IMG/VR virus record: IMGVR_UViG_3300028591_004246
Span: 64,001 to 93,199 of that record
Strand: one strand, 5' to 3'
DNA: 29,199 nucleotides
Origin: a virus
Below the pieces are notes generated by a model. That model had not been told where the DNA came from and ran no database searches. It was given only the letters and a program-made list of their open reading frames with translations. Made by a program: the position numbers and the translations under genes. Positions 1 through 29,199 of the stretch are shown here, piece after piece. The number at the start of each line of letters is the position of its first letter. Position 1 is the stretch's first letter.

Positions 1-68
1 TTGGTGGTATAAACCAATAGAAGTAGAAAAAACTAAAATTAAAGTAGTATTACCTTGGGAAGATTAAT

Positions 69-1139
69 ATGGCTTTTTATGATAAAGATGAAGTTAAAAA
101 TGCCTTAGATATAGAAGATGTATTTGATATTTTAGAATCATTAAATGCTGAGCCAGACTTGCGGGAAGATTATATTATAGCTATTACAGTTTGTCATGGT
201 GGAGATAGTCATAAACTATATTATTATGATAATACTAAACTTTTCAAATGTTTTACTCATTGCGGAACAATGGATATCTTTGAATTATTAATGAAAATTA
301 AACAAATAGATTTAAATACTGCTGTATCTTATATTGTTAATTTCTTTAATTTGGGTTGGAAAATTAAAAATAAAGATAATATTGATAATTTTTTAGACTG
401 GAGAATATTAGATAAATATGAATATATAACTAATATTAAAATTAACAATCAAAAAGCAGTTTTTCCAGAAATTGATTCTAAAATTTTACAACATTTCCCG
501 CAACCTAGAATATTAAATTGGGAACAAGAACATATACCAAAAGAAATAAGTGATTATATGGACATTCATTATAATCCTTTAACCGGAGGTATCCTTATTC
601 CGCACACGGATGAAAATAATAGATTAATTGGTATTAGAGAAAGAACTTTAGTTCAAGAAAATGAGAAATATGGTAAATATCGTCCAGCAAGAATTAATGG
701 CAATATGTATAACCATGCTCTTGGATTTAATTTATATGGTTTCTATCAAGCTAAAGAAAATATTAAAAATACTCAAATTGCTTTAATTTTAGAAGCTGAA
801 AAAAGTGTTCTTCAAGCAATTAATTATTTAGGAATAGCAAATAATATAGCTGTTGCAGTTTGCGGATCAACCTTATCTTCATATCAATTGCAAATGCTAT
901 TGGACATAGGAGTAAAAGAAATTGCAATAGGTTTTGATGCTGATTATCAAAAAATTGGAGATAAAGAATATGAAGAAACTATAAAAAAATTTGAAAAAAT
1001 ATATAATAAATATTGTGGATATGTTAATATAAGTTTTTTATTTGATATAAATGGTGATTTATTAGAATATAAAAATTCTCCAACAGACAAAGGAAAAGAT
1101 GTATTTTTTCAATTATGGAGAAATAGAGTATTCTTATAA
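69..1139 (+). CDS. DNA primase, DnaG-like (zinc finger + TOPRIM)
   Basis: Intact 356-aa ORF with no in-frame TGA. The N-terminus carries a Cys/His zinc-binding pattern (CHGGDSH...KCFTHCG) like the primase CHC2 finger. Later acidic motifs (LILEAEKS, IGFDADYQ) fit a TOPRIM fold. It is the first gene of a replication gene cluster. Confidence 0.6.
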   Translation: MAFYDKDEVKNALDIEDVFDILESLNAEPDLREDYIIAITVCHGGDSHKLYYYDNTKLFKCFTHCGTMDIFELLMKIKQIDLNTAVSYIVNFFNLGWKIKNKDNIDNFLDWRILDKYEYITNIKINNQKAVFPEIDSKILQHFPQPRILNWEQEHIPKEISDYMDIHYNPLTGGILIPHTDENNRLIGIRERTLVQENEKYGKYRPARINGNMYNHALGFNLYGFYQAKENIKNTQIALILEAEKSVLQAINYLGIANNIAVAVCGSTLSSYQLQMLLDIGVKEIAIGFDADYQKIGDKEYEETIKKFEKIYNKYCGYVNISFLFDINGDLLEYKNSPTDKGKDVFFQLWRNRVFL

Positions 1140-1154
1140 AAGGAGGTTTTTAAA

Positions 1155-3216: not shown

Positions 3217-6200
3217 GTGTCAATTTTGAATCAAAGGGTAAGCATTCATAATCACACTTATTTTAGTAATCTTCGCCTACTTGATGCTTTATCGTCACCA
3301 GAGGCGTTGATTGACAAAGCAATTGAATTAGGTCTTGCAGGAATCGGAATTAGTGACCATGAATCTTTATCAAGTCATGTTAGAGTAAATAAATATGCTC
3401 AAAAAATTAAAGAAGATTATCCAGATTTTAAAGTAATTCTAGGTAATGAAATTTATTTAACTAAAACTAGAGATTCAGGACAAAAATATTATCACTTTCT
3501 TTTAGCTGCTAAAGATGAAATTGGTCATAAAACTATGCGGGAATTATCAAGTATTGCTTGGTTAAATAGTTATTTTGATAGAGGTTTACAAAGAGTTCCT
3601 ACACTTTATGATGAATTAAAAGAAATTGTTTTAAAATATGGTAAAGGTCATCTTATTGCTAGTTCAGCATGTATAGGTTCAAATCTTGGACAAAATATTT
3701 TAAAAATGCGAGAAGCAGATATTATTGGAGATATTATTTCTCGTAAAGAAGCACATGATGATATTGTTAATCATGTATTATTTTGTCAAGATTTGTTTGG
3801 AGATGATTTTTATTTTGAAATTGCTCCAGCATTATATGAAGAACAAATTTATGTTAATCAAAAAACTTATGAATTAAGTAAAATATTTGGAACTAAAGTG
3901 ACAGTTCAAGATGATAGTCATAGAATAACTCAAGAAGATTATATCGCTCATAAAGCTCTCCTTAATAGTAAACAAGGAGAGCGAGAAGATATTGATAGTT
4001 TTTATCAATATACTTATCTTCAAAGTTATGAAGATATTAGAAAACATTTAGCTCCAACCAATTTAGATTGTGATGAACTGTTTGCTAATAGTATGGAAAT
4101 TTATAATAAAGTAGAAGAATATTCTTTACTTCATAATCAGAAAGTAGTTCAAGTAGCAGTACAAGATTTTCCTAAAAAAGAAAAAACTGAATTAGATAAA
4201 GAAAAATATCCTGTTTTAAATTCTTTATATAATAGTGACAATATTCAAGAAAGAAATTGGGTTAATCAATGTATTAATAAACTTAAAGAAAAAAATATCT
4301 TTAATGATTTATATTTAGCAGAATTAGAGTATGAAGCAGATATTCAAAAAGTTGTCGGAGAAAAATTAGGAACTTGCTTATTTGCTTATCCTCTTTTTCT
4401 TCAACACTATATTGATTTATTTTGGGAGTGCGGAAGTCCTGTTGGAGTCGCTAGAGGATCGGGCGCAGCTGGTCTTAACCACTATCTTCTTGGTATTACT
4501 CAGTTAGATCCCCTTAAAGAAGGTTTTAAATATTGGCGATTTCTTAATAAAGAGCGCCTAGAGCTACCAGATATAGATATAGATACGGCACCAGATCGAA
4601 AACAAGCAGTCTTTAGTAAAATAAGAGAAGAACGAGGTCCACTTGGTTTAGTTCAAATTTGTACATTTGGTACTCTAAGTAGTCGAGCATCTGTACAAAG
4701 TGCTTGTAGGGGTTATAGGTCAGCTGAATATCCAAATGGAATTGATGTAGATGAAGCTCAATATTTAACTTCTCTTATTGGTAGTGAGAGAGGTTTTGTA
4801 TGGAGTATCCATGATACTGTTTATGGTAATCCAGATAAAAATAGGAAACCTGTTAAAAATTTTGTTAATGCTGTTAGTAAATATCCAGGTTTATTAGATA
4901 TTATTCTTAAACTTGAAGGTTGTATATCTCATAGAGGTATTCATGCAAGTGGAGTTCTCTTTCTTGATAAAGGTCATGAGTATGATATTAATGCATTAAT
5001 GATGGCTCCTGATGGATCAATAACAACACAATATGACCTTCACGATGCAGAGTCAACTGGAAATGTTAAGTATGACTTTCTTTATACAGATGTTGAAAGC
5101 AAAATAGCTCAATGCCTACAACTTTTACAAGAACACGGTAAAATTGAAAAAGATTTAACTTTACGTGAAGCTTATAATAAATATTTACACCCAGATGTTC
5201 TTCCAATGGAAGAAGATAAGCTTTGGGATGCAATTGATAAAGCAAATATTCCTAGTCTTTTTCAATTAACTTCTATGGTTGGTTCTCAAACAGTTAAAAA
5301 ATTAAGACCTAGAAATATTAAAACATTAAATGATGTTAATGGTATTATGCGTCTTATGGCTGATGATAGTGGTGAGTCTCCAACAGATAGATATGCAAGA
5401 CTTCAAAATAATCCTCAACAATGGGAAGATGAAATGAATTATTATAATCTTACCCAAGAGGAAAAGAATGTTATTAGAGAGTATGTCAATAATGGAGTTT
5501 TAATTGATCAAGAGACTCTAATGAGAATTCTTATGGATGAAAGAATTTGTTCATTTTCTCTTAAGGAGTCTAATGCAGCTCGTAAAATCGTAGCTAAAAA
5601 ACAAATGAATCAAATTGAAAAACTTCATCAACAAATTCTTAATAAGGCAACAAGTGAAGCAATGGGAAAGTATCTATGGTTCCTCTTAGCTCCGTCTATG
5701 GGTTATTCATTCAGTTCCATTCATGGAACAAGTTATAGCTATATTGCCGTTCAATGTGCATATCTTGCCACATATTTTCCATCTATTTATTGGAATACTG
5801 CTTGTGTACGAGTAGATGCTGGATTAGGATTAGATGATACAACCGCATATGAAAAAATTGCTAGAGCATTAGGAAATATCAAAGAACAAGGTATTGGTAT
5901 TTCAACAATTGATATTAATAAATCTGGAATGTCTTTTGAACCAGATGAAAAAAACAATACAATTATTTATGGATTAAAAGCACTTAATGGAGTAGGTGGA
6001 GAAATTACTCAACAAATTATTGATAATAGACCTTATACTTCTGTTGATAATTTTAAAGAAAAAGTTAAAGTAAATAAAACTGTAATGATATCTTTAATTA
6101 AATCTGGTGCTTTTGATGAATTTGGTCCAAGAGACAAGATAATGAGAGATTATTTATATATCACGTGCGGGCCAAAGAAAAGAATTACTCTTCAAAATTT

Positions 6201-7041
6201 TAAAGGTTTAATGGATAGGAACCTTATCCCGCAAGAATTTGAATTTCAAAAAAGATTATTTGTTTTTAATAAAGCATTAAAAGCAAATTGTAAAATTGGT
6301 GATATGTATGGTATAAACTTTAATTATTATGATTTTTATGAAGAGTTTTTTGATACATCATTACTTGAACCTCTTGGTCAAGGTTTAGGAATTCCTCAAA
6401 AAACTTGGGATAAACTTTATAAAAATGGAATGGATCCTGTAAGAGATTATTTTAAAGCAAATCAACAAGAAATTTTAGATTTATTTAATAATACTCTTTT
6501 ACAAGAAGAATGGGATAAGTATGCTCAGGGAACTCTTTCTACATGGGAAATGGATTCTTTATCTTTTTATTCTCATGAACATGAATTAAGTCATATTGAC
6601 AATTCTAGATATAATATAGTAAACTATAATAGTCTTAAAAGAGAACCTGAAATTGAATATATGTTTAAAAGAAATGGACATGATATTCCTATTTATAAAA
6701 CTTTTAGAATTGCTGGAACTGTAATTGCTAAAAATAGCACTAAATCAATTGTAACTATTTTAACAACAGATAATAATGTTGTAGATGTTAAGTTTACAAG
6801 AGATTATTTTGCAAAATATAATAAAAGAATTAGCGAAATTGGCTCAGATGGGAAAAAACATATCATAGAAAAAGGATTCTTTGATAAAGGAACATTAGTA
6901 ATTATTAATGGTTTTAGACGTGGAGATATGTTTGTTTCTAAAAAATATTCAAGAACAAAAAGTCATCAATTATATAAAATTATTAAAATTAATCAAGATG
7001 GAAGTCTTGAGATAACAAATGATAGAGCAGGAGAAGAATAG
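3217..7041 (+). CDS. dnaE: DNA polymerase III alpha subunit (DnaE-type) with N-terminal PHP domain
   Basis: Uninterrupted 1274-aa ORF with a GTG start. The PHP motifs HNHTYFS...GISDHES are present. The catalytic-region motif GVARGSGAAGLNHYLLGITQLDPL matches the DnaE PGRGSAAGSLV..LGIT..DPL signature. At least 11 Trp residues are all encoded by TGG, with no TGA. Confidence 0.9.
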   Translation: MSILNQRVSIHNHTYFSNLRLLDALSSPEALIDKAIELGLAGIGISDHESLSSHVRVNKYAQKIKEDYPDFKVILGNEIYLTKTRDSGQKYYHFLLAAKDEIGHKTMRELSSIAWLNSYFDRGLQRVPTLYDELKEIVLKYGKGHLIASSACIGSNLGQNILKMREADIIGDIISRKEAHDDIVNHVLFCQDLFGDDFYFEIAPALYEEQIYVNQKTYELSKIFGTKVTVQDDSHRITQEDYIAHKALLNSKQGEREDIDSFYQYTYLQSYEDIRKHLAPTNLDCDELFANSMEIYNKVEEYSLLHNQKVVQVAVQDFPKKEKTELDKEKYPVLNSLYNSDNIQERNWVNQCINKLKEKNIFNDLYLAELEYEADIQKVVGEKLGTCLFAYPLFLQHYIDLFWECGSPVGVARGSGAAGLNHYLLGITQLDPLKEGFKYWRFLNKERLELPDIDIDTAPDRKQAVFSKIREERGPLGLVQICTFGTLSSRASVQSACRGYRSAEYPNGIDVDEAQYLTSLIGSERGFVWSIHDTVYGNPDKNRKPVKNFVNAVSKYPGLLDIILKLEGCISHRGIHASGVLFLDKGHEYDINALMMAPDGSITTQYDLHDAESTGNVKYDFLYTDVESKIAQCLQLLQEHGKIEKDLTLREAYNKYLHPDVLPMEEDKLWDAIDKANIPSLFQLTSMVGSQTVKKLRPRNIKTLNDVNGIMRLMADDSGESPTDRYARLQNNPQQWEDEMNYYNLTQEEKNVIREYVNNGVLIDQETLMRILMDERICSFSLKESNAARKIVAKKQMNQIEKLHQQILNKATSEAMGKYLWFLLAPSMGYSFSSIHGTSYSYIAVQCAYLATYFPSIYWNTACVRVDAGLGLDDTTAYEKIARALGNIKEQGIGISTIDINKSGMSFEPDEKNNTIIYGLKALNGVGGEITQQIIDNRPYTSVDNFKEKVKVNKTVMISLIKSGAFDEFGPRDKIMRDYLYITCGPKKRITLQNFKGLMDRNLIPQEFEFQKRLFVFNKALKANCKIGDMYGINFNYYDFYEEFFDTSLLEPLGQGLGIPQKTWDKLYKNGMDPVRDYFKANQQEILDLFNNTLLQEEWDKYAQGTLSTWEMDSLSFYSHEHELSHIDNSRYNIVNYNSLKREPEIEYMFKRNGHDIPIYKTFRIAGTVIAKNSTKSIVTILTTDNNVVDVKFTRDYFAKYNKRISEIGSDGKKHIIEKGFFDKGTLVIINGFRRGDMFVSKKYSRTKSHQLYKIIKINQDGSLEITNDRAGEE

Positions 7042-7068: not shown

Positions 7069-7383
7069 ATGAATGAATATTGATTTGTACATGAGCCTAA
7101 ACCTGAATGGGTGCGGGAATTGCAAGAACAAGGAATTTTAACTGGCCCTGAATATGCTGCTGTAACTATAGTATATACTTTTTATACAGGAGAACATAAA
7201 GATTATCTTTATGATGGAGATGCTTTAATTAAAACTACAGAAGGTATTATTGCTCCAATTTCTTATCAGTGGATAGACAGAGCTAAAAGAAAAAATCCAG
7301 ATATGAAATTATATTCACCAGTTGAAGGACAAATGGAAGAAATTCTTGCATCTATTTATTCCAATTTGGGCAAAAATAAATAA
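7069..7383 (+). CDS. hypothetical protein (104 aa)
   Basis: ATG at 7069 with SD GGAG 7-8 nt upstream. The frame is open through a TGA at 7081-7083 (Trp) and joins the track ORF 7111..7383. No recognisable motif. Confidence 0.5.
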
Positions 7384-7445: not shown

Positions 7446-7649
7446 ATGATTACACTTTATAGTACAGGTTGTCCTCGTTGTAAAGTTTTAGAGCAAAAAC
7501 TTCAACAAAAAAATATTGATTTTAATATAGAATCAAATATGCAAACTATTATTGATATGGGTTTTAGAGCAGCTCCTATTCTTAAAGTAGATGAAAACTT
7601 TTATGATTTTGGAGGAGCTATTAAGTGGGTAAATTCATATGAAGATTAA
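7446..7649 (+). CDS. nrdH: glutaredoxin-like / NrdH-type redoxin
   Basis: 67-aa ORF with a CPRC redox motif near the N-terminus and an overall thioredoxin-fold pattern. SD GGGAGG lies upstream. It sits immediately upstream of nrdD and overlaps it by 11 nt. Confidence 0.6.
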   Translation: MITLYSTGCPRCKVLEQKLQQKNIDFNIESNMQTIIDMGFRAAPILKVDENFYDFGGAIKWVNSYED

Positions 7650-9603
7650 TATGAAATTAAACCGCAATTTTACAACTCAATATAATAAATTGCAAGGTGA
7701 ATTTGGAACAGAAATTGCAGAATTAAATGGTTTTGGAGATGAGCAACTTTCTTATACGGATTTTATTTCTAATTTTATAGATAAACAAACAGTAGCAGAT
7801 GCTTCTATTGATAGTAATTCAAATGTTAGTCATAAAGATATTGTAACTTTAGAAAGAGAAATGCCTAAACCCCACTCTAAACTTTTAGCTTTTAATAAAA
7901 TTTATTATGAAATTCAGAAGAAATATGGATTTAAAACAGCTAATGAATGGTTGCGGGCAGAGTGGATAGGTCAGCTTTATATGCACGACGCTCCATCATC
8001 AACATTTAGACACTATTGTTTTGCTTATGACTTAAAAGATTTAGCAGAAAGAGGGTTATACTTCTTTCCTGAAAGAAATGCTAAACCAGCAGAGCATTAT
8101 ACAACTTTTATTGATTTTGTAAAAGAGTTTGTTAATTATACTTGTAATCGATCTTCAGGTGCAGTAGGGTTGCCAAATCTTCTTCCATATATGTTTTACT
8201 TCTGGAAAAAAGATATAGATGACGATTATCTAGGCATACGAACTTCAGGCAATGAACGATATTATGCTGATCAGGGATTCCAACGATTTATTTACGCGGT
8301 AAACCAAAACATCATGAGAGATGGTTCACAATCAGCTTTCACAAATACATCAATTTTTGATCGGCCATATTTTGAAGCTCTTTTTGGTGGATCGACATTC
8401 CCTGATGGAACCTTTATGATTGATTATGAAGAAGAAATAATTGAATTTCAAAAATGGTATATGGAAGTTATGTCTGAAATTCGATCAACTAATATGTTAA
8501 CATTCCCAGTAAACACAATATCTCTTCTTCGTAAAGAAGGAAAATATGATTTAAACACTCTTGATGGTTTCGTTGATCAAAATTTTGCAGAGTGGGCTAT
8601 TAAACATAATATGAAATGGTCAGATTCAAATATTTTTCAAGATACATCTGTTAATAGTTTATCAAATTGTTGTCGATTAAAAAGTGATATTGCTGAGCTT
8701 GGCTATTTTAATAGCGTCGGGGGATCAGCACTTAAAGTCGGATCTGTTAAAGTATCGACAATAAATCTTGCTCGTTTAGCATTAGATACAGATTCAGAAG
8801 AAGAATATTTACAAGAACTTGAATATAGATTAATTTTAAATCTTAAAGCTCTTGATTGTGTTCGTCATATAATTCAAAGAAATGTTGACAAGGGTTTGCT
8901 TCCTAATTTTTCATATGGCTTAGTTGATTTCCCGCATCTTTATAATACAATTGGCTTCCTTGGTGTTTATGAAACAATGAAAAAATTTGGATACACTAAA
9001 GTAGATACGTTAGGTAATACTTATTATACTGATAAAGCTTCTTTGTTCGGTCAGAAAATTTTTGAAACTATTCGTGAAGTATCTAATCAATTTATTAAAG
9101 ATAATAATTTAGATTATAAGATTAATTGTGAACAAATTCCTGGTGAAAATGCAGCAGATAAATTAATGAAAAAAGATAAATTCTTTTATCCAAATGCCAA
9201 TATTTATGATTTACCATTATATGGTAATCAATTTATTCCTTTAGGAATTCAAACTACTGGGCAAGAAAGAGTTAGAATTCAAGCGCAATTTGATGCTTTC
9301 TGTAATGGAGGATCAATACTTCATTATAATATTGATGCACCTTTTACAAGTTACGAAAAAGCTTTATATATGACTAATTATATTGCTCAAAAAGGTGTTA
9401 CATATTTTGCATTTAATACTCGAATTTCTACATGTGAAGATAATCATGCATTTTATGGCAACGGGCTTTGTCCAGTCTGTGGTAAACCAAAAGATGCAGA
9501 GTTTACTAGAATTGTTGGCTTCTATACAAAAATTAACAGTTGGAGCCAGACTCGCAAAGATGAGTTTAAACTTCGTAAATGGGATAACATCAATGATAAT
9601 TAA
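7639..9603 (+). CDS. nrdD: anaerobic ribonucleoside-triphosphate reductase (class III), NrdD
   Basis: 654-aa intact ORF. It carries the conserved GGSALKVGSVKVSTINLARLAL segment, a C-terminal Zn ribbon (C..C...CPVCG), and a glycyl-radical motif TRIVGFYTK near the C-terminus. No TGA. Confidence 0.85.
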   Translation: MKINMKLNRNFTTQYNKLQGEFGTEIAELNGFGDEQLSYTDFISNFIDKQTVADASIDSNSNVSHKDIVTLEREMPKPHSKLLAFNKIYYEIQKKYGFKTANEWLRAEWIGQLYMHDAPSSTFRHYCFAYDLKDLAERGLYFFPERNAKPAEHYTTFIDFVKEFVNYTCNRSSGAVGLPNLLPYMFYFWKKDIDDDYLGIRTSGNERYYADQGFQRFIYAVNQNIMRDGSQSAFTNTSIFDRPYFEALFGGSTFPDGTFMIDYEEEIIEFQKWYMEVMSEIRSTNMLTFPVNTISLLRKEGKYDLNTLDGFVDQNFAEWAIKHNMKWSDSNIFQDTSVNSLSNCCRLKSDIAELGYFNSVGGSALKVGSVKVSTINLARLALDTDSEEEYLQELEYRLILNLKALDCVRHIIQRNVDKGLLPNFSYGLVDFPHLYNTIGFLGVYETMKKFGYTKVDTLGNTYYTDKASLFGQKIFETIREVSNQFIKDNNLDYKINCEQIPGENAADKLMKKDKFFYPNANIYDLPLYGNQFIPLGIQTTGQERVRIQAQFDAFCNGGSILHYNIDAPFTSYEKALYMTNYIAQKGVTYFAFNTRISTCEDNHAFYGNGLCPVCGKPKDAEFTRIVGFYTKINSWSQTRKDEFKLRKWDNINDN

Positions 9604-10057
9604 AGGTATTATTTCTGAAGATTTTATTAATTATAAAAAACCTTGTATGGTTATAGAATTTCCAGTTTGTAAAAATTTTAAATGCGGGCAAGCCTTATGT
9701 CAAAACGATCCATTAATAAAATATCCAGATATAGAAATTAGTTATTCTCAAATTGTTAAAAAATACATGGAAAATGATATTACACAAGCTATTGTTTTTA
9801 TGGGGCTAGAACCTTTTGATAGTCCGCATGATTTATTTCTTTTAATTGAAGAATTTAGAAAATATACAATGGATGATATTGTAATTTACACTGGATATTA
9901 CTGGAATGAAATTTCTACATATGTAGCTATGCTAGGGGATTATAAAAATATTATTATTAAATACGGTAGATACATTCCCAATCAAACTCCACACTATGAT
10001 GAAGTTTTAGGTGTAAAATTGGTAAGTGATAATCAATATGCTGCAAAGATCAGTTAG
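9593..10057 (+). CDS. nrdG: anaerobic RNR activating protein (radical-SAM), NrdG-like
   Basis: ATG at 9593 overlaps the nrdD stop (ATGATAATTAA). The 154-aa product has segments matching NrdG (AIVFMGLEPF ~ GISLSGGDPL; DIVIYTGYYWNEI ~ DIWVWTGYKLDEL). The Cys cluster is PCMVIEFPVCKNFKCGQALC. The track ORF 9383..10057 is a spurious N-terminal extension that overlaps nrdD. Confidence 0.7.
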   Translation: MIIKGIISEDFINYKKPCMVIEFPVCKNFKCGQALCQNDPLIKYPDIEISYSQIVKKYMENDITQAIVFMGLEPFDSPHDLFLLIEEFRKYTMDDIVIYTGYYWNEISTYVAMLGDYKNIIIKYGRYIPNQTPHYDEVLGVKLVSDNQYAAKIS

Positions 10058-11075: not shown

Positions 11076-11356
11076 TGATTAAATATCTTCTTAAAACAAC
11101 TGAAGAATATCGTCTTGAAACTGTAGAAGATGTAAAAACTTTTCATAAAAAACTTCAACAAGATGCTATAAATCAAGGATATACGCTAAGCTCTTTTGGA
11201 TATACGCAAAAGTCAACAACTGCTCGTGGAGAAATTATTGATGAATGGTGTGTTGTAAAAGTTATAAAAATATTCCAAAAAGATAAAGAACCAGAAAATG
11301 CACTTAATAAAATTACTTATGAAACTTTTAATAGAGAGGAGTTTAATGGAGATTAA
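11075..11356 (+). CDS. hypothetical protein (93 aa)
   Basis: Intact ORF. Its stop overlaps the dUTPase start region. Confidence 0.5.
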   Translation: MIKYLLKTTEEYRLETVEDVKTFHKKLQQDAINQGYTLSSFGYTQKSTTARGEIIDEWCVVKVIKIFQKDKEPENALNKITYETFNREEFNGD

Positions 11357-11768
11357 AATAAAATATGAACATGATGATGTCCCTCGATTAAATAAAATTG
11401 TTCAAGGAGATTGAATTGATTTAACTTTAGATGAAGATATTCAATTAGATAAAGGGCAATCAGGACTATTTTCTTTAGGAGTGTGTATTCAATTACCAAA
11501 AGGATATGAAGCAATTTTAGCTCCAAGAAGTTCAACATTTAAACGTTATCATTTACTTCAAACCAACTCAATTGGTGTTATTGATAATTCTTATTGTGGA
11601 AATAATGATATCTGGAAAGTTAGTTTTTATGCCACCGAAACTACTTTTGTTCCAAGAGGAACAAGAATTTGTCAATTTAGAATAATTAAAAATCAGCCTG
11701 AAATTAATTTTATAGAAGTTTCATCCCTTAATAATCAAGATAGAAATGGTTTTGGTTCAACAGGATAA
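11346..11768 (+). CDS. dut: dUTP diphosphatase (dUTPase)
   Basis: ATG at 11346 with SD AGAGGAG upstream. The 140-aa product has dUTPase motifs (GVIDNSYCGNND, RICQFR, C-terminal NGFGSTG). One in-frame TGA (GDW) is read as Trp. This merges the track ORF 11481..11768 with upstream sequence. Confidence 0.8.
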
Positions 11769-12247
11769 TGATTTTATCTTTAGATCAAGCATTAGTCACA
11801 ACAGGTTGAGCAATTTTTGATGAAAATAAATTAATAGCTTATGACAGTTTTACTATAAATGGAAAAGATTCTATTGAAAAAAGATTAGGATTTATTTTTC
11901 AAAGATTAACAGAATTATATAATAAATATGAGTTTGATTATTTAGTATTTGAAGATATTCAACAGCAACAAAATCCAAGTACATATAAAAAACTTGCATA
12001 TGTTCAAGCGATTATTTTACTTTGATGTTTTTATAATCAAATTAATTTTACAGTATTAAGTCCTTCTCAATGAAGAAAAATATTAGGTGGTAATTTTGGT
12101 AGAAAAAGAGAAGAACAAAAACAAAAAGCTATTGATTTAGTAAAACAATATTATAATATAAATGTTGATTCAGATATAGCAGATGCAATTTGTATTGGTA
12201 AAGCTTATTTAGATAGTCATAAGCAATTAGGATTTGGGGTGATTTAA
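11768..12247 (+). CDS. RuvC-like Holliday junction resolvase
   Basis: ATG overlaps the dut stop (TAATG). The 159-aa product has ILSLDQALVTTGWAIFD at the N-terminus and SDIADAICIG near the C-terminus (the RuvC D-x-ADA-x-AI motif). Three in-frame TGA codons are read as Trp. Confidence 0.7.
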
Positions 12248-17329: not shown

Positions 17330-17376
17330 ATTCACCTCTCCCTCTAATCAATTCTCACTAAAATTATTATAAAATA

Positions 17377-17405: not shown

Positions 17406-17414
17406 AAATTTTTA

Positions 17415-20400: not shown

Positions 20401-23400
20401 TGATGTGTATTAATTTCTTCAAGAGCATAACAATTTTGTAACATACAGGTTGTACTATAAGCACCAATCATATTAAAGTGTTGATTTAAAGTTTTTAAAG
20501 TATAACAGTGTTGAAACATATATTGGAAATTAGTACATTTTTGAGAAATAAAACTATCAGGAAAAGTTAATTCTTCAAGAGCATGGCATCCTTCAAACAT
20601 CCCGTCAACTCTTTGAAGATTTGCTCCTCCAAAGGTTTCTGGAATTCTAATTGATTGAAGAGCATAACATCATTGAAACATTCTTTCTGCACTAGTATTA
20701 TTTATCATTGTAAAAGTATCTGGAAGATATAATTCTTCAAGAGACTCACAATAACAAAACATATACGTAGCATTATCTCCACTTCATAAAGAAGTATTAA
20801 AATTAGGAATCAAGAGATGCTGTAATGATTTACAATTATAAAACATTTGATAAAAATCAGAACATTTAATAGTATTAAAACTTGTTAAATCTAACTCTTG
20901 TAAAGATTGACAATCATAAAACATTTCATACATTGTAGTAACATTTTCTGTTGAAAAATTATTAAAATCTAAAGTTTCAAGTTTAGTACATGCATAAAAC
21001 ATTTCATTAAAAGTAGTTACTAAATCTGTATTTAATGGAGTTAAATCAAAAGTTACTAAAGAAGAACAATAACAAAACATATTAGCACAATTAGTTAAAC
21101 TGTGTCAATATTCCATACCACTAATATCTAAAGTAGTTAAATTAATACAATCATAAAATAAATTAGATACATTTTTAATACTTTGTCCTTGAGCCCCTCA
21201 TGTAGACATATCAATAGTAGTACCTCTATATCCTCTAAATAAATTAGCAATACTAGTACAAGTATTAATATTTCACTCTTCTAGATGAAGATCAACACTA
21301 CTACCACAATAAGTTCCGCCTATTGATTTTCCTGCTAAATAGAAAGTATTATTTCTATAAATAACTCTTTGTAATGCTGAGCATCCTCAAAATTGAGCCT
21401 GAATATTTTTAACATGTTCAGTCCAAAAACTAGAAAGATTAATAGTTCGAATAGTATTAGCATTTAAAAACATTACTGCTCAATTAATAGAAGTAGTTGT
21501 TTCTTGAATATTTCATTGAGACAAATCTACACTAGTTCCCTTATAGCCACTAAACATTGCTACAAAACTTGTTTGCTGTGAAACATCTCAATGACCAATG
21601 TTTAAAGGAATTTTAATATTATAAAACATTTGCCCAACTGCTGTATAATATGTATATCTCATACTTCCATTAGTACCAGTATCAATTCATCTTGTAGAAT
21701 AGTTTTCATTACTTCAATAATCAATTGAATTAGCCTTCATTATAAATGAATTTGTTTCAAAAGTTTTAAGTTTAGAACAATTATAAAACATAGCTTCAAA
21801 ATTTACAACTTTAGAAGTATTAAATGTTTGAATTTTTAAAGTAATTAAATTAGTACATTCAGCAAACATTTCTGCCATACTTGTTCCTTGAGAAGTATCT
21901 CAATTAGAAAATATTAATTCCGTACCTTTATAACCATAAAACATTCTAATAAAATATTTCATTAAAGAGGTATTAAAAAGAGTCAAATCATGAATTTGTC
22001 CTATACTTCCATTGAACATGTCTCTAACATTTACACTAGAATGGAACTTTCATTCATTTGTTATATACAAATCCTGTAAATTAGAGGTTCCATAAAACAT
22101 TTCTGACATATTGGTACAAAATTCAATATTAAAGTCTGAAAGAGTAATTGTAATTGCCTTACAGTTATAAAACATTTGTGACATATTAATACAAGATTCG
22201 GTATTAAAATCTAAAAGAGTAACTGTAGTTGCTTTACATTCTCTAAACATCTGCGACATATTGGTACAAACTTCTGTATTAAAATTTGAAAGTGCGATTG
22301 TAGTTAATACAACATTTGTATTATAAAACATTTGATACATTGTTGTTACATGAGAAACATCTCAAGTAGAAATATTAATTTCTGGAAGAAAACATCCACC
22401 AAACATATAAGTCATATCTGTAACTGAAGAAGTATCCCAAGTATTAAATAAAATTCAAGGAGCATGTACATCTGCAAAAGTATTAATCATATTCTGTACA
22501 GAAGAAATATCTCAAGTAGATAAATCTAATCCATTAGTAAAAGTAGACAGCCTAAACATAGCTCTGAAAGAAGTAATATTAGAAACATTTCAATTTGCAA
22601 CGTTTATATTTGTAAAAGTTGAACGATACAACATTGCTCTTAAATTAGTAATATTACTAAAATCTAAATTTTCAGCTTCTAATGTTCCAATAGTAGAATC
22701 ATAAAAGAAACTAAAATCACTATCTCAACTAGGAATATTTGTTAAACTAGTAATATCTCAATCTGTAATATTAATTAAATTTGCAGTACATCCTCTAAAA
22801 ATAAATTGCATATTAGTACAATTACTCATATCTCAGGTTCTTAAATCTAATTCAAGACTAGATGTTCCCATTTCTCTAAACATACCACTAGCATTTAAAA
22901 CTTCACTAGTATCAAGAATATCTAATCCTTCAATAGACTGCAAACCTTTTAATTTATAAAACATATTCATACTATTAGCATTTAAAATAATAGGTGCTGC
23001 AACTTCAAAAGTAATAGTAATTGTTCCAGTATTATTATCTCAATTAGCTACTACTGGAGAACCTTGAGAACCAATAGCAATACCAGATTTTTGAATACCA
23101 TTTTCAAATATTATATGTTTAATTTTAGTATCTTCAAAATTACCATCTGTAACATTACTTCCATTTGCCATACGTTTAATAGTATAAGAAAATTCACCAC
23201 CAGAAATTAATCTAGAATTATATTTTTCTGGAAGAAGCGGAAAATCATAATATGTTTCTACTTTAATAGGAATATCTTCATTTCAAACAGTATACATATT
23301 TTGAACACCAGTATACATATCTTTAGGAAATTGCATTGGATATAAAACTATATTATAATCTAAGTAAGTAGGAGAGACATAGAAAAACGCTCTATCCTCA

Positions 23401-26400
23401 TTTGAATCAACACTACCATCCTTACGATAAAGTAAAGTAATAATATGCGGATTATCATCATAAATTTCATATACAACTGTAGTATATGCTGTACTTGGTT
23501 TTTGATAAGTATGATATTCACAATTAGAAGTTGATAATCCAGAAGTTTGATCGAGTTTACTAACAATTAAATAATCATAACTTGATTCTCCATTAGAACG
23601 AACTCTAATAGAAAATCTTGAATAACCTTGTATAGTTAAATAACAATAAGCATTTCCATTAGCAATATGATAATTAGAATTACTTTTATAAATTTGAGAA
23701 CCATTTATAGCATTATCACCATCTTCAATCCATTGGTCATTTAAATCAATAGATCAAGAAGCATCAGATAGGTGTTTAATAGAATATCCTTCTATTTCTG
23801 CATTTCTAGCAGTATCATAAAATTGTCCTATATCCATTTGCTGCATAGCTAAACAATTATATAAACCATTCTCTTTTTCAGTATAATTAAATAACGTTCT
23901 ATGTTTGCGGAAATCGAGGTATGTCATACTTTCACAACCAGAAAAAATTTCTCGCATATCCCGCAAATAATTAGAACACAATAATACTATATTAGTTTCA
24001 ATAGCTTTGCAATTCATCATCATTTGATAAGCTGAAACTACAGTGTTAAATATAATTTCAGGATAGGCTTCTTGTTTAATTTCTGTTAAATTATAACAAT
24101 TCTTAAACATTTTATCAGCATTTTTAATATACATAAAAGGAAATACTTTAGTAACTAAATCATATGTAGGAGCTGCACCTGTAGATTTTGTTCCTTTTGG
24201 TCAAATAATTTTTTCAAGTTCATAACAATTTTCAAACATTGATGACATATTACCAATATTTTCAGATGTTAAACCAAGATTACCATTATTATTATATGGT
24301 AATCCAGTAGCTTGAGCTAAATTATGATAAGTTTGGAACATTCAAGTACTTAAATCAATTTCTTGTAATTTTCTACAATCTTTAAATATTCTAACAAATC
24401 AATATTTTTGACTATTACTAGTATTTTCAGAAGGAGAATATTCGGTTGTAGTACCTCTTCAATCACCAAATTTTAGATTAACTAAAACTAAATTTTCAAG
24501 ATTATAACAACCATCAAAAGTTCCTTCAAATTCTTGAGTTGTATTATAATTAGTAATATCTATAGGTCTATCATTTGGAAATTTAATACTTGTAATTTTA
24601 CGACAATTATAGAAAGTTTCTTTTAATGAAGTTAATTGAATATCATAACCGCCATATTGTAATCAACTTCTACTATATCCTGTAATTCAATTATAACCAG
24701 CATTAGGATCAATCTTAGAAATAAATTTAGAAAAATCTATACTCATTTCTAAATTTTTACAATTATAGAAAGTTTGACTTAAATTTCATAAAACCATATT
24801 TTGAGAGCCATTACTTGATTTATCAAATTGACCATTAGTAGTAATACTCTTTAAATTAGTAATATCAATTAATGACCCACAATTATAAAACATTTGTTTA
24901 AATTGATTATTAGAATGTCTATCAACATAATAAGTTCAATTATTAGAAGTATAATATCTTCTAAATGCTAAATTAATTTTTTCAGGTAAAATAATATGTT
25001 TAACATTTATACATTCTTTAAACATTCCTTCATAACAAGGACCATTAAAAACATTTGAATATTTTAAATTAATTTCTTCTAAAGATTTACAATTATAAAA
25101 TAAATAAGAATAATCGTATAAATTTGTAAAAAAGAAATATTTTAAATCTAAATTTTGTAAAGATTCACAATTATAAAAACATCTACCTACTAATTCAGTC
25201 TTTCTTCAATAAGCACTAAAACCAAGAGGCTGAGCATATTGTCCATGTAAATCTGTAATTGTAATTAAGGATTTACAATTATAAAAAATTCTATCAAAAT
25301 TACAATATAAATAACAATTAGACATATCAAGTGCGGGAAGAGATTCACAATTTTCAAACATACTAGCAGCTTTTACAAGACGTCCATGAAATTCCATTTT
25401 AACAAAATCTAAATTAATTAAAGATTTACAATTACAGAACATATAAGAAACATCTGTGACACCTCTTGTTCTTCATCTATCAAAAATAATAGATATTAAA
25501 GATTCACAGTTTAAAAACATTTGATTTGTAGAGTATAATCATGGACTTTCAACATCTCCCATATCCAAAGATTGGAGATTAATACAGTCTTTAAACATTT
25601 TTTTAATATCTCTAGCCATATGCCAATTAAAATTAGATAAATCTAATTGAGTTGCCAAACAACCCTCAAATAAATTATTAAAATAAATATTTTCTTTATT
25701 AAATTGTGCGGTCAATTGCTCATAAATCACATCTGGCAACCAAGCAAAAATATAATCTTTCTTTCTTGGAAATATAATTGAAGAAATATCAATTTCTCTT
25801 AAATTATTACATCCAGTAAACATATATGACATATCTTGAACATTAATTGTATTAAAATTAGATAAATCTGCAAAAAGTAAGGAAGCACAATTATAAAACA
25901 TATAAGACATATCTATAACATTATTTGTATCAAAATCTTTAAAATCAATTAAACTTAAAGATTCACAATTACTAAATAAATGTGTCATATCTGTTACTTT
26001 AGAAGTATCTATATTTTCAGGAAGTATAAGTTCTTTAAGATTTTTACATCCATTAAACATATATTCCATATCTATAACGTTAGAAAAATTAAAATGAGAT
26101 AAATCAATATAATCAAATAATTCACAATTATTAAACATATAACTTGTATCAGTTAATGTTTGTAGTTCTAAATTAGATAAATCTACGGTAATAAGCGAAA
26201 AACATCCGTCAAACAAATGAGAAATATTTGTAATATTTTCCCATTGAATCTTATTGAAATTGTTTATGCGTCGTAATTCCCGCATATCATAAAAAGTATA
26301 TTCTGCATTATCTCTAATTACAAAATTTTCAGCTCTGGTTTGAATAATAATTTTTTTAGTGTCACTATTATAATAAATGTATGGCCCAACATATTCTATA

Positions 26401-29186
26401 TCATTAATAGTAGTTACATATTGAGTACCATGTGGACTAACAATTCTTGTTCTAAAGTCTATACTTTTAATTTCTTGTAAAGAAACACCTTTAGTTGCAG
26501 AATAATTTTCTATCATATTCCGCAATGCCATCCCTGAATAAAATATATTATTATCAAAGCCATATGTTCTTTCTAGCAGCTCTTGGGTTACAGCTCTTTC
26601 TCTAATATATTTTCCAGGCCCATCAATTAAACCAGTAACATTAATATTAAAATTAGGAATAATACTTTCTTTAGTAGTATCATATTTTGATAAAATAACT
26701 TCGTTATCATTGTTAAGAGGAAGCTTATATCAAGGTTCATCCGTTGTTAATTGTTCATAACCATCTGTCTTTTCATAACTTTTATTAATTATAACAACAT
26801 TTGCTGTTGGAATATAATTTTTTAAACATTTTCTTAAAGTAGAATTATAAGATTTTGTTGCTCTATTAATAGTTTTCATTCTTCCTCAATCAACATCTGA
26901 GAAATTAATAGAACGTAAATCTGAACAACCTTTAAACATAGTATCTAAACCATAGATATAATATCAATCATAGTACTTTTCATCATATCCTCTATGTGTT
27001 TTTCTATAATTAGTCACATCTTCAAGATATATTTCATCACAAGGATCTTGAAAAGGAATTAATTCTTCTCTTGTAACAACAGGATTCATTTTAAAATTAG
27101 TAATATCAGTTAATCTCTCATCATCATTAAACATATATGCATAATTACAACAATAACTAGTATTAATTTTTTCAAAAGAAAAATCTTCAAGATAAATCAT
27201 TCCAGAGAACATACCAGAACCATCTGCTGGAATATAAAATTCATTTTCTGGTGTTGCTACAATTAATGTTTTAGTATCATGGTCATAATCTCATGTTAAA
27301 CTATTAGAATAAACTTTTTTACTATATTCATCTACTCTAACAACCAAACTATTAGGAAGCGGGAATAATACATTCGTTCTTCATTCTATATGTTTTATTA
27401 CTTTTCCAGCAAATTGTTTACTAAAATTTTGACCTAAGAAATTATGCATAGAAGGATATTCATAATAAGGCTCTGGTTTGACTATACAATCTTCTCTAAT
27501 ATATCTACCTATTTGATGAAGATTTAATTGATAAGTTCTAATACCAGTATTTTGTTCTATCATATAATATGGTAAAGCTAATCCAATATCTTTTAAATAT
27601 CCATCTCTATTTTGGTCAAGACCTAATAAACTAGAAGCAGCATCTTTATTCATTCCTGCATCAACTGCTAATTTAAATAAATCTTGCATATAAGCTTGTA
27701 CGTATTTGTCTTGAATATAATCACTATATGGAAGATTTACTGCTGGAGTATATTGACTATTCATATTAGTAAACATACCCTCTTGTACCATATTACCAGT
27801 AGTTAAATCCATTACTTCTTGAGTAACTGCTTCCGTATATGACATTCTTCAATCAATACGGAGTCCAGCTTCTACACTATTTAATAAATCATATCCTGGC
27901 ACTCCACTAATATTATATCCCATAAATGCACTACTAGAAGTCATTGTATTAACTTCTGTATAAGTAGTAATACTAGGTTTAATTCCTTCAACTGTTTGAA
28001 AATCTTGTCGTGGACTATAAGCATCATAGTGTGCAATTTGTCATCCATTTACACTTAACATAGTTCTAGAACCTGTTAAAATTTCTTGTAAATTTCAACA
28101 ATTATGAAAAGGAGAATTTATATGCAATGTTTCTTTACCAGAATAGAAGAAATTAATTCAATTAGTTCAATCAATTTTCTTTAATTGGTAACATTCAGAA
28201 AACATTCCTGAAATATTATTAATTGAAAAAACTGGACTATCAAAAGTAAATTCTTCAAGAGAAATACAAAAATGAAACATAAAACTTACATCTTTAAGAG
28301 ATGGAACTTTTCAAAATAAATTTTTAGGATTTGTTTTTAAACTATAACAATGAGAAAACATGTTTTTCATTGAAACCAAATTTGGAGCAAATATAGGTTC
28401 AATATTAACAGTAGTTAAATTAGGACAGTATGCAAATGTTTCTTGCATATATGTAACTTTACTGATATCAATACCTTGAAGATTTGCTTCTACGAGATTC
28501 GGACATTCAGAAAACATTTGAGTCATATTACTAGAACGTAATACTTTATCTCCATAAAATCTAAAATTAACAAATCCACATTGAGAAAACATTCCAATCA
28601 TTTCACATTCATGATAAAAAGTTGGAAGTTTAACCTCAACTAAACAAGAACAGTTTTTAAACATTCAATTTAGAATTCTAACATTGGAAGCGTCCCAAGA
28701 GGTCAAGTCAATTGTATTAATACTTAAACAACCTTGAAATCAACCCTGAAAACTTTTAACTAATGAAGTATCTAAATTACCTATATTAAAGATAAGTCAT
28801 AATTCACTCATACCAGAAAACATATTGGTCATATCTTCTGGAACTACAACTTTTCCATTAAATACAATATTTTTAATTTCACTATTATAAGCAGACCATG
28901 GATTAGTAAGATATTCTTCTGATAGGTAGGTAACTTTATCAGGATCACCAATTACTAATGTCCCATGGTTTGTAATAGCCCAAGGACAATCACCATTATA
29001 TCCAGAATAAATAATTTCTCCACCTCGAATATATTTTTCAAGGTCAGACATTTCTTTTCCTGGAAGGTCATCAATAGCAGAAGAAAATTCGTAAGGCATA
29101 TAGGTTTCATCTCGCCCATTCTTCTCACGAATAGCATCTGCAATATCCGTTAAAACAGATTTTTTAATAAATACTTCTTCTGCCAT
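17415..29186 (-). CDS. giant BspA/DUF285-type leucine-rich-repeat protein (3,923 aa with TGA=Trp); likely tail fiber / host-adhesion protein
   Basis: ATG at 29186 with SD AAGGAG 6 nt upstream. All 14 minus-strand track ORFs between 17415 and 29186 lie in one frame. I read every gap between them codon by codon and found only TGA (61 in total), with no TAA or TAG until the TAA at 17415-17417. The product consists of dozens of ~25-aa repeats of the form ..MFxxCxxL..lDlSnFnTSnVtdMsxMF.. The conserved S-W-D-x-S-N-V tryptophans are encoded by TGA. Confidence 0.75.
22103..22330 (-). repeat. three near-identical 75-bp tandem units (DNA-level) within the giant gene
   Basis: TGACATATTGGTACAAAATTC..., TGACATATTAATACAAGATTC... 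and CGACATATTGGTACAAACTTC... occur with a 75-nt period. Each unit encodes one 25-aa DUF285 repeat. Confidence 0.7.
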
Positions 29187-29199
29187 TTTATCTCCTTTT

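What the first reader, a model, noticed from the sequence alone, without database searches (positions are those of the whole stretch)
1..29199. TGA is read as Trp, and the recoding is concentrated in the late (minus-strand) module
Seen in sequence: the 3,923-codon ORF at 17415..29186 contains 61 in-frame TGA codons and no TAA or TAG until its terminal TAA. TGA falls on conserved Trp positions: the GH25 SHW motif of the endolysin, the S-W-D-x-S-N-V tryptophan of DUF285 repeats, GDW in dUTPase, and the Trp residues of RuvC. The endolysin has about 17 TGA, the holin 2 and the 208-aa gene 3. In contrast, Pol III alpha (1274 aa, at least 11 Trp, all TGG), NrdD, NrdG, the primase, the SPFH protein and the lipoprotein have none. 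The whole rightward module has only about 7 TGA in roughly 5,000 codons. All stops are TAA or TAG. Established knowledge: Mollicutes use code 4 genome-wide, and stop-codon-recoded phages with recoding biased to late or lysis genes have been reported from metagenomes. Inference: this phage relies on TGA suppression mainly for late gene expression. A suppressor tRNA-Trp(UCA), or the host, must supply the decoding. No tRNA gene is present in this window.
Basis: partly seen in the sequence, partly recalled or inferred. Interest (0 to 1): 0.85.

Follow-up and report, generated by a model that had tools for sequence, protein, structure and literature searches.

The report
Phage reads TGA as tryptophan late
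This is part of a ~148-kb gut (probably rumen) phage related to SPbeta. It writes tryptophan as the stop codon TGA in its tail, lysis and other late genes but avoids TGA in its DNA-replication genes, a timing device already described for recoded gut phages in 2022.

Summary
The minus-strand genes hold 83 in-frame TGA against 23 TGG. The plus-strand genes hold 7 against 48 (Fisher p = 4e-16). All 21 genes end in TAA or TAG.

TGA means Trp. Twelve of the 17 endolysin TGAs align with TGG in a homolog that has no in-frame TGA. The dUTPase TGA is the W of QGDWIDL in SPbeta YosS.

The real anomaly is avoidance in early genes. Every other NNA/NNG codon pair is about 90% A-ending in both modules, so the late genes (78% TGA) sit near equilibrium and the replication genes (13%) are under selection.

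The endolysin (GH25, CHAP, PG-binding) and SPP1-type holin imply a walled Firmicute host, not a Mollicute.

No tRNA was found in the window or in about 88 of the 148.5 kb of the genome I could read. A relative carries a tRNA-Trp-like UCA tRNA just upstream of its lysis cassette.

This matches the published TGA-recoded, roughly 127-kb "Agate"-type phages of Borges et al., so it is a new member of a known kind.

A side finding may be new: that suppressor tRNA carries a copy of the Trp CCA anticodon hairpin in its variable arm, in at least 27 phage contigs.

The parts
69..1139 (+). Primase-like gene (g01); 0 TGA / 4 TGG
   Evidence: Weak CHC2 zinc-finger match; counts; 100% identical in IMG/VR contig 3300031992_002114.
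1155..2912 (+). RecJ-like exonuclease (g02); 2 TGA near the N-terminus, 8 TGG; probable ATA or ATT start after the RBS AAGGAGG at 1140-1146
   Evidence: DHH, DHHA1 and RecJ_OB domains. Sequence read. The second TGA aligns with TGG-Trp in L002 RecJ.
3217..7041 (+). DNA polymerase III alpha (g03); 0 TGA / 12 TGG
   Evidence: Counts. It is 36-38% identical to the SPbeta YorL-type polymerases of Bacillus and Enterococcus phages. All Trp codons shared with L002 are TGG in both.
7069..7383 (+). Small gene of unknown function (g04); 1 TGA at codon 5, or none if translation starts at GTG 7111
   Evidence: No family match.
7446..7649 (+). Thioredoxin/NrdH-like gene (g05); 0 TGA
   Evidence: PHROG 22 thioredoxin domain.
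7639..9603 (+). Gene read as the anaerobic ribonucleotide reductase NrdD (g06); 0 TGA / 8 TGG
Evidence: Counts.
9560..10057 (+). NrdG-like activating enzyme (g07); 0 TGA; start approximate
   Evidence: Fer4_12 match; counts.
11346..11768 (+). dUTPase (g12); 1 TGA (codon 23) / 1 TGG
   Evidence: Aligns residues 1-140 with SPbeta YosS and B. subtilis YncF, E = 1e-44. The TGA falls on the W of QGDWIDL.
11768..12247 (+). RuvC-type Holliday junction resolvase (g13); 3 TGA / 0 TGG
   Evidence: Pfam RuvC. Codons 86 and 102 align with TGG-Trp in L002 RuvC.
12249..13184 (+). SPFH/Band 7 membrane protein (g14); 0 TGA
   Evidence: Pfam Band_7, E = 5e-26.
13187..13894 (+). Putative lipoprotein (g15); 0 TGA / 4 TGG
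   Evidence: Lipobox-like LGC motif in the translation. No family match.
13912..13939 (.). Bidirectional intrinsic terminator between the convergent early and late modules
   Evidence: Stem of 10-11 bp with T runs on both strands.
13947..15509 (-). Endolysin (g16): GH25 muramidase, CHAP and PG-binding domains; 17 TGA / 7 TGG; first TGA at codon 11
   Evidence: Pfam. W is the commonest residue in 16 of the 17 TGA columns across 47 homologs. Twelve of 17 align with TGG in the TGA-free homolog L139. Also PDB 1jfx.
15569..15859 (-). SPP1-type holin (g17); 2 TGA / 1 TGG
   Evidence: Pfam Holin_SPP1, E = 4e-24.
15885..16685 (-). Late gene of unknown function (g18); 0 TGA / 2 TGG
   Evidence: PHROG 38190. 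With only two Trp, the absence of TGA is not significant.
16703..17329 (-). Late gene of unknown function (g19, 208 aa); 3 TGA / 1 TGG
17415..29186 (-). Giant 3,923-aa DUF285 / BspA-type LRR protein, probably a tail fibre or adhesin (g20); 61 TGA / 12 TGG
   Evidence: Pfam DUF285, E = 1e-164, 16 stretches, plus LRR_5. The W of the repeat motif is TGA six times and TGG once.

Best explanation
The window is about 20% of a ~148.5-kb SPbeta-like siphophage that infects a walled, standard-code Firmicute of an animal gut.

The phage genome as a whole is adapted to TGA = Trp. No gene uses TGA as a stop. In the late genes TGA has drifted almost to the level expected from the genome's A-ending bias.

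Genes that must be translated by the unmodified host machinery right after infection are kept free of TGA by purifying selection. These are the primase, Pol III alpha, NrdDG and, upstream of the window, the gyrase-like genes, the ligase and most of DnaB.

Structural, lysis and some DNA-processing genes (RuvC, dUTPase, RecJ) can be completed only once a phage-induced decoder makes TGA readable. The stop codon therefore works as a translational lock that delays tail, adhesin and above all lysis proteins.

The decoder is most likely a phage-encoded tRNA-Trp-like suppressor with anticodon UCA, as in the relative L002, located in the part of the genome I could not read.

Shown: the codon statistics, TGA = Trp, the domain content, and the relatives with the same pattern. 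Inferred: the standard-code host, the timing role, and the identity and location of the decoder in this phage.
For: **Codon statistics.** The TGA fraction of Trp codons is 0.13 in early genes and 0.78 in late genes. Thirteen other NNA/NNG pairs are about 0.9 in both modules, and GC3 is equal.

**The pattern extends beyond the window.** In near-identical contigs the late genes hold 160 TGA against 43 TGG. The upstream replication genes hold 1 TGA against about 30 TGG.

**Selection has been sustained.** Window and L002 Pol III are 56% identical in protein, yet 12 of 12 and 19 of 19 Trp codons are TGG. Replication genes of more distant relatives are also nearly free of TGA.

**TGA = Trp.**

**Walled Firmicute host.** GH25, CHAP and PG-binding domains plus an SPP1-type holin. 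The nearest cultured relatives are SPbeta-like phages of Bacillus and Enterococcus. The dUTPase is YosS-like.

**A relative carries a decoder.** L002 shows the same split, and a UCA tRNA sits directly upstream of its lysis cassette.

**Operon layout.** The two modules converge on a bidirectional terminator.

**Published precedent.** The same pattern and model appear in Borges et al..
Against: No suppressor tRNA, release-factor gene or TrpRS was found in the window, nor any tRNA in about 88 of 148.5 kb of the genome. The decoder of this particular phage is therefore unknown.

The host is inferred, not identified. The only genome hits are phage-like contigs binned into ruminant MAGs.

The early/late labels rest on gene function and operon layout, not on expression data.

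Some genes among the replication genes (RecJ, dUTPase, RuvC, a ThyX-like gene) carry TGA, so the switch is not cleanly replication versus structure.

The base after TGA shows no bias toward weak-termination contexts.
Confidence: 0.8

Rival explanations
1. The host itself uses genetic code 4 (a Mollicute or another TGA = Trp bacterium). The phage simply shares its code, and the shortage of TGA in early genes is ordinary gene-to-gene variation.
For: GC is 28%. DUF285 is a family named after Mycoplasma proteins. No suppressor tRNA was found in the 88 kb read.
Against: The endolysin carries a GH25 muramidase, a CHAP peptidase and PG-binding domains alongside an SPP1-type holin. That makes sense only against a peptidoglycan wall.

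The early/late difference has p = 4e-16 and is specific to TGA/TGG.

Pol III keeps 12 of 12 and 19 of 19 TGG in two lineages that are saturated at synonymous sites.

The relative L002 carries its own UCA tRNA, which a code-4 host would make redundant.

The nearest cultured relatives infect Bacillus and Enterococcus.
Confidence: 0.05
2. Mosaic origin. The replication module was recently acquired by recombination from a standard-code phage and has not yet had time to accumulate TGA. No selection or regulation is involved.
For: Phage genomes are mosaic. Borges et al. report code changes between genomes of more than 90% ANI. The two modules are separate convergent units.
Against: GC, GC3 and all 13 other A/G-ending codon pairs are indistinguishable between the modules.

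The same TGA-free state is seen in Pol III, RecJ and gyrase homologs of relatives at 40-75% protein identity. That implies long-term maintenance.

RecJ, dUTPase and RuvC inside the same module do carry TGA at Trp positions.
Confidence: 0.07
3. The phage encodes no suppressor tRNA. TGA is read by the host's own tRNA-Trp(CCA), or another host tRNA, after a phage protein weakens release factor 2 or alters the ribosome or tRNA.
For: No tRNA was found in about 60% of the genome. Borges et al. found suppressor tRNAs in only 35% of code-4 phage genomes. Several early genes have no known function.
Against: Sixty-one TGAs in one ORF need near-complete decoding at every site. The relative L002 and many large phages solve this with a dedicated UCA tRNA. 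About 60 kb of the genome is still unread. No RF-like or TrpRS-like gene was seen.
Confidence: 0.2
4. TGA encodes something other than Trp (Gly as in code 25, Sec, Cys or Ser), or the TGA-rich ORFs are pseudogenes.
For: ARAGORN labels the relative's UCA tRNA 'tRNA-SeC' because of its long variable arm.
Against: W is the commonest residue in 16 of the 17 endolysin TGA columns, and Gly appears once in 47 homologs.

Twelve of 17 align with TGG codons in a TGA-free homolog. The dUTPase TGA is the W of YosS.

The UCA tRNA has the A1-U72 and G73 features of tRNA-Trp and the same arms as neighbouring phage tRNA-Trp(CCA) genes.

A 3,923-codon frame without TAA or TAG cannot be a decayed gene.
Confidence: 0.02

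Closest known systems
TGA-recoded 'Agate'-type phages of Borges et al. (bioRxiv 10.1101/2021.08.26.457843; Nat Microbiol 2022)
   Same: - Genomes of roughly 127-154 kb from cattle, pig and tortoise guts, with predicted Firmicutes hosts.
- TGA read as Trp.
[quoted passage not shown]
- A recoded tail protein next to the lysis cassette, recoded transmembrane proteins, and recoded intron endonucleases inside early genes. The last is seen here in relatives L002, L123 and L128.
- TGA abandoned as a stop codon.
- A suppressor tRNA detected in only some genomes.
   Different: Clade membership could not be tested because no Agate reference sequence was available to the tools. This genome is 148.5 kb. 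Its late genes are far along in recoding (about 79% of Trp codons), whereas the paper stresses recent, partial recoding.
SPbeta-like phages (Bacillus SPbeta/phi3T; Enterococcus EF1, H1, VRE9)
   Same: - Pol III alpha of the YorL type, 36-38% identical over 99% of its length.
- A YosS-type dUTPase, E = 1e-44.
- A head-region protein shared at about 29% identity.
- Genomes of 130-150 kb with a very long tail operon and Firmicute hosts.
   Different: The cultured members use the standard code throughout. Identity is low (family level or beyond). No integrase or lysogeny genes were seen in the parts I read.
phAss-1 / proposed 'Phassvirus' (OQ749652, PMC10607447)
   Same: A roughly 136-kb gut phage with Pol III alpha, NrdG, dUTPase and holin. 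Its virion genes and several DNA-processing genes are interrupted by a recoded stop codon. A head-region protein is 33% identical.
   Different: It recodes TAG to Gln, not TGA to Trp. It carries 36 tRNA genes, including three CUA suppressors. It comes from the human gut.
Mollicute phages and other phages that share a code-4 host
   Same: TGA = Trp, low GC, DUF285 repeats.
   Different: Those phages use TGA throughout and need no wall-degrading lysin. This one avoids TGA in early genes and encodes a muramidase, CHAP and PG-binding endolysin.

Membership tests
Stop-codon-recoded phage, code 4 (TGA = Trp), with late-gene-biased recoding | In-frame TGA inside genuine genes; gene structure restored by reading TGA as sense | tested here: met
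   Under table 11 the minus-strand region breaks into ORFs of at most 330 aa. Under code 4 it gives five contiguous genes with known domains.
Stop-codon-recoded phage, code 4 (TGA = Trp), with late-gene-biased recoding | TGA positions correspond to Trp in homologs that do not use TGA | tested here: met
   Internal repeat evidence.
Stop-codon-recoded phage, code 4 (TGA = Trp), with late-gene-biased recoding | Recoded codon enriched in structural and lysis genes and depleted in replication genes | tested here: met
   7/48 against 83/23, p = 4e-16, with controls on other codon pairs. Extended to neighbouring genome regions.
Stop-codon-recoded phage, code 4 (TGA = Trp), with late-gene-biased recoding | Host uses the standard code | tested here: inconclusive
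   Inferred from the wall-degrading endolysin, the SPbeta-like relatives and the TGA avoidance in early genes. The host was not identified.
Stop-codon-recoded phage, code 4 (TGA = Trp), with late-gene-biased recoding | Phage-encoded TGA suppressor tRNA (frequent but not universal: 35% of published code-4 genomes) | tested here: inconclusive
   None in the window or in about 88 of 148.5 kb. Present in relative L002. About 60 kb is unread.
Stop-codon-recoded phage, code 4 (TGA = Trp), with late-gene-biased recoding | TGA not used as a stop codon | tested here: met
   All 21 genes end in TAA or TAG.
Agate clade (Borges et al.) | Placement in the clade by large-terminase phylogeny or gene-sharing network | not testable with these tools
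   No Agate reference sequences were available, and the terminase lies outside the parts read. Only the descriptive traits match.
SPbeta-like phages | Shared replication and nucleotide-metabolism core (YorL-type Pol III alpha, YosS-type dUTPase) and a genome of about 130-150 kb | tested here: met
   Similarity is only at 29-38% protein identity, so this is a distant relationship, not genus membership.
Phage of a code-4 (Mollicute) host | Wall-less host, so no peptidoglycan-degrading lysis system; TGA used uniformly | tested here: not met
   GH25, CHAP and PG-binding endolysin. Strong non-uniformity of TGA use.
Code 25 (TGA = Gly) phage of Gracilibacteria/Absconditabacteria | TGA at conserved Gly positions | tested here: not met
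   Gly occurs once in the 17 endolysin TGA columns across 47 homologs. W is the commonest residue in 16 columns.

The most novel reading that the evidence does not exclude
The code switch in this phage lineage may be carried out by an undescribed kind of suppressor tRNA.

It is a tRNA-Trp look-alike with A1-U72, G73 and the same D and anticodon arms as ordinary phage tRNA-Trp. Its anticodon is UCA. Its long variable arm is a covarying 4-7-bp hairpin whose loop keeps the Trp anticodon loop core U-CCA-A.

That second loop would act as a decoy anticodon, letting the standard-code host's TrpRS (which needs C34-C35-A36) charge a TGA-reading tRNA with Trp.

The design is present in relative L002, next to its lysis cassette, and in at least 27 distinct IMG/VR phage contigs. 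The window's phage would carry one in its unread 60 kb.
Probability: 0.3. Interest if true: 0.75.

Novelty: new member of a known kind. Interest (0 to 1): 0.3.

Why it matters
For annotation, it matters a lot. Under the standard table about half of this window, including a 3,923-aa adhesin and the endolysin, falls apart into fragments.

For biology, it is one more clean example that a phage of a standard-code host can use a reassigned stop codon as a late-gene lock. This example also supplies a useful internal control. Because all other A/G-ending codon pairs are equal between the modules, the selection can be located in the early genes (avoidance) rather than in the late ones.

The phenomenon itself is not new.

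The side observation is more promising if nobody has described it. A suppressor tRNA with a copy of the Trp anticodon hairpin in its variable arm would give a directly testable answer to an open question: how these phages get a UCA tRNA charged with Trp by a host enzyme that reads the anticodon.

Tried and rejected
**Searches that found nothing useful**
- Megablast of 14 kb against GenBank phages gave no match.
- Exact-protein look-ups for Pol III and the endolysin were not on record. The look-up for g18 returned only a 2.6-kb contig.
- PHROGs and Pfam on ten small or unassigned proteins revealed no release factor, TrpRS or other translation factor.
- Four literature searches and four papers did not describe the two-hairpin tRNA. 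Absence from the open-access library is not proof of novelty.

**The hunt for the suppressor tRNA**
- I walked the genome through IMG/VR and JGI contigs. This reached about 88 of 148.5 kb with no tRNA.
- A tRNA-pattern scan of IMG/VR was capped at 80 loci and did not include this phage's contigs. A narrower pattern found only L002's contig and one unrelated contig.
- A protein search meant to allow one more walking step returned no long contig of this phage.

**Host prediction**
- The genome collection returned only phage-like contigs binned into ruminant MAGs.

**Hypotheses considered and rejected**
- A Mollicute host, code 25, selenocysteine, pseudogenes, and a recent mosaic origin of the early module. 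See the rival explanations.
- A weak-termination context after TGA. The base that follows TGA does not differ from the background (p = 0.17).


Full report

Yes. The window (29,199 bp, 28.3% GC) contains a minus-strand frame at 17415..29186 with 3,923 codons. It holds 61 TGA and 12 TGG, and has no TAA or TAG before the terminal TAA. At this composition a random frame of that length would hold hundreds of TAA and TAG.

Read with TGA as sense, the minus strand from 13947 to 29186 gives five back-to-back genes:
- an endolysin with GH25, CHAP and PG-binding domains;
- an SPP1-type holin;
- two genes of unknown function;
- a giant DUF285 / BspA-LRR protein.

Under table 11 the same region breaks into ORFs of at most 330 aa.

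- Endolysin 17 TGA / 7 TGG, holin 2/1, the 208-aa gene 3/1, the giant gene 61/12.
- Pol III alpha 0/12, NrdD 0/8, NrdG 0/1, primase 0/4, SPFH 0/2, lipoprotein 0/4.
- The plus strand has 7 TGA in 4,486 codons: RecJ 2, g04 1, dUTPase 1, RuvC 3.
- All 21 genes stop with TAA or TAG.

ARAGORN and Rfam find no tRNA or other known RNA in the window.

**2. Is the strand difference more than chance or composition?**

The split is 7/48 against 83/23, Fisher p = 4e-16.

The informative control is the set of 13 other codon pairs that differ only by A or G at the third position. Their A-fraction is 0.86-0.98 in both modules, apart from the rare CGA/CGG pair. GC3 is 0.125 against 0.114.

So composition predicts about 90% TGA among Trp codons everywhere. 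The late genes (78%) are close to that. The early genes (13%) are far below it. The anomaly is avoidance of TGA in the early genes.

**3. What does TGA encode?**

Trp, on five lines of evidence.
- In an alignment with 47 endolysin homologs, W is the commonest residue in 16 of the 17 TGA columns and a clear majority in 14. Four of the columns are invariant W. Gly appears once.
- One homolog whose DNA I could read (L139, a 90-kb contig binned in a rumen Bacillota MAG) has 22 TGG and no TGA. Twelve of the window's 17 TGAs align with its TGG codons.
- The dUTPase aligns end to end with SPbeta YosS and B. subtilis YncF (E = 1e-44). Its TGA is the W of QGDWIDL.
- RuvC codons 86 and 102 and one RecJ TGA align with TGG-Trp in relative L002.
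- Within the giant protein, the W of the DUF285 motif W-D/N-x-S is written TGA six times and TGG once.

**4. What genome is this?**

IMG/VR holds near-identical sequence (97.6-100%) split over two contigs of one sample, 64.7 kb and 83.8 kb, that abut at window position about 2913. A JGI contig of 148,493 bp (Ga0247610_10000088) is 99% identical in the tape-measure region. The genome is therefore about 148.5 kb.

The nearest cultured relatives by Pol III alpha are the SPbeta-like phages of Enterococcus and Bacillus, at 36-38% identity over 99% of the length. A head-region protein links the phage more distantly to the same Enterococcus phages and to the TAG-recoded gut phage phAss-1.

Homolog records carry ruminant labels (RUG, Sheep_Jejunum). 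My recollection that the JGI sample numbers are rumen metagenomes is from memory and was not tested.

**5. Does the pattern hold outside the window?**

Yes.
- Upstream replication genes are almost free of TGA. The gyrase-like pair, the ligase, DnaB and others hold 1 TGA against about 30 TGG.
- The late operon continues on the same strand through three large genes (1,186, 1,217 and 1,379 aa), two of about 550 aa, and a tape-measure protein of more than 2,827 aa. Together with the window's late genes this gives 160 TGA against 43 TGG.
- The split follows function rather than strand. About 10 kb further upstream a ThyX-like gene has 5 TGA / 1 TGG, and a few others carry TGA among TGA-free neighbours.
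- Relative L002 (Pol III 56% identical) shows the same picture: Pol III 0/19, RecJ 0/14, RuvC 3/3, a GIY-YIG-like endonuclease gene 3/0, and a probable lysin gene (not scanned) 9/6.
- At that divergence synonymous sites are saturated. Retention of TGG at every Trp codon of Pol III in both lineages therefore indicates sustained selection.
- More distant relatives have nearly TGA-free replication genes, interrupted by small ORFs with 4-5 TGA and no TGG. I read these, by inference, as homing endonucleases.

**6. Host and decoder**

A muramidase, CHAP and PG-binding endolysin with an SPP1-type holin implies a peptidoglycan wall, which excludes Mollicutes. Early-gene avoidance implies that TGA is not readable at the start of infection, so the host uses the standard code. 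This is an inference.

I looked for the decoder and found no tRNA in about 88 of the 148.5 kb. I found no release-factor or TrpRS gene among the window's proteins.

Relative L002 has a 97-nt tRNA with anticodon UCA directly upstream of its lysis cassette, on the late strand. It scores 39 bits against the Rfam tRNA model.

So a phage-encoded suppressor is the likely decoder in this lineage, but it is not shown for this phage. The two modules of the window converge on a bidirectional terminator at 13912-13939.

**7. Comparison with what is known**

Borges et al. (bioRxiv 10.1101/2021.08.26.457843, later Nat Microbiol 2022) describe the following:
- TGA-recoded 'Agate' phages of about 127 kb (clade mean 154 kb) from cattle, pig and tortoise guts;
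- predicted Firmicutes hosts;
- preferential recoding of an intron endonuclease, of a tail protein beside the lysis cassette, and of a transmembrane protein;
- loss of TGA as a stop codon;
- suppressor tRNAs detected in only 35% of code-4 genomes.

They also propose the same model, that recoding blocks premature synthesis of late and lysis proteins. The window fits every descriptive point.

I could not test clade membership for lack of reference sequences. The finding is therefore a new member of a known kind. It is well supported but not surprising to a specialist.

**8. A side finding that may be new**

ARAGORN labels the L002 tRNA 'tRNA-SeC' because of its long variable arm.

A pattern scan of IMG/VR returned 80 loci, the cap. 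About 60 carry such a tRNA. Part of these are ordinary selC-like genes with a GGAAG or GGGAG start and no special variable-arm loop.

At least 27 distinct sequences share a different design:
- most have A1-U72, and all have G73;
- the D arm and anticodon arm are nearly identical to the ordinary tRNA-Trp(CCA) gene that often sits beside them in large phage tRNA arrays;
- the anticodon loop is CUUCAAA;
- the variable arm forms a hairpin whose 7- or 9-nt loop always contains U-CCA-A, the core of the Trp anticodon loop.

The 27 stems are all different in sequence. They average 5.1 bp, against 2.7 in shuffled flanks (maximum 3.4 in 200 shuffles).

Bacterial TrpRS uses the CCA anticodon and G73 as identity elements (established knowledge). 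A UCA suppressor would therefore be a poor substrate. A second, decoy CCA loop could restore charging. This is an inference and needs biochemistry.

I found no description of this design in four full-text searches and four papers. That does not prove it is undescribed.

**9. Verdict**

Confidence in the main explanation is 0.8. Novelty is low for the finding itself, and interest is 0.3. The most novel reading still open concerns the decoder, not the recoding pattern.

Noticed in passing
L002 23262-23358 (-), same as L091 375-471; also L067 8971-9066, L065 737-832, L070 9967-10062, L077 1638-1733, L092 1856-1951, L109 11911-12007 and about 20 more loci: These are tRNA-Trp-like genes of 93-100 nt with anticodon UCA. 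Their long variable arm is a covarying hairpin with a U-CCA-A loop, a copy of the Trp anticodon stem-loop. ARAGORN calls them tRNA-SeC. In large phage tRNA arrays they often sit beside an ordinary tRNA-Trp(CCA). The loop may be a decoy anticodon for host TrpRS.
   Followed up: partly
window 1140-1161: The RecJ-like gene has no ATG, GTG or TTG near its true N-terminus. A strong RBS (AAGGAGG, 1140-1146) is followed by in-frame ATA (1155) and ATT (1161). It probably starts on a rare Ile-type start codon, and two TGAs follow within the next 45 codons.
   Followed up: partly
L002 16563-17123; L123 16318 and 19026; L128 1858, 9142, 11826, 16677: Small ORFs among the TGA-free replication and nucleotide genes of relatives write all or nearly all their Trp as TGA (3/0, 5/0, 5/1, 4/0). 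The L002 one has a GIY-YIG-like N-terminus. This matches the recoded intron endonucleases reported for Agate phages.
   Followed up: no
L092 138-214 and L099 3898-3974: Two large phage contigs (117 and 120 kb) carry both the two-hairpin UCA tRNA and a CUA tRNA (labelled tRNA-Pyl by ARAGORN) in one array. They may suppress two stop codons.
   Followed up: no
L121 3565-4173 (IMG/VR 3300031992_002114, about 10 kb upstream of the gyrase-like genes): A ThyX-like gene of the same phage (assigned from a sequence motif only, not scanned) has 5 TGA / 1 TGG among mostly TGA-free neighbours. A nucleotide-metabolism gene is therefore as heavily recoded as the lysis genes.
   Followed up: no
window 15885-16685; L010 725-2764: Two late genes escape recoding. 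g18 has only two Trp, both TGG. The 679-aa repeat protein upstream of the giant gene has no Trp at all. Both are rich in short V/T/D repeats.
   Followed up: no
window 17415-29186: A single 3,923-aa protein is built almost entirely of DUF285 / BspA-type LRR repeats (16 Pfam stretches). Its two C-terminal-type modules end in near-identical motifs (…YRKDGSV-x-N…FY). It is very large for a phage adhesin.
   Followed up: no
late genes of window, L010, L030, L031: TGG is followed by C or T more often than TGA is (p = 0.003, with only 43 TGG). TGA is rarely followed by C (6%). The cause is unknown.
   Followed up: partly
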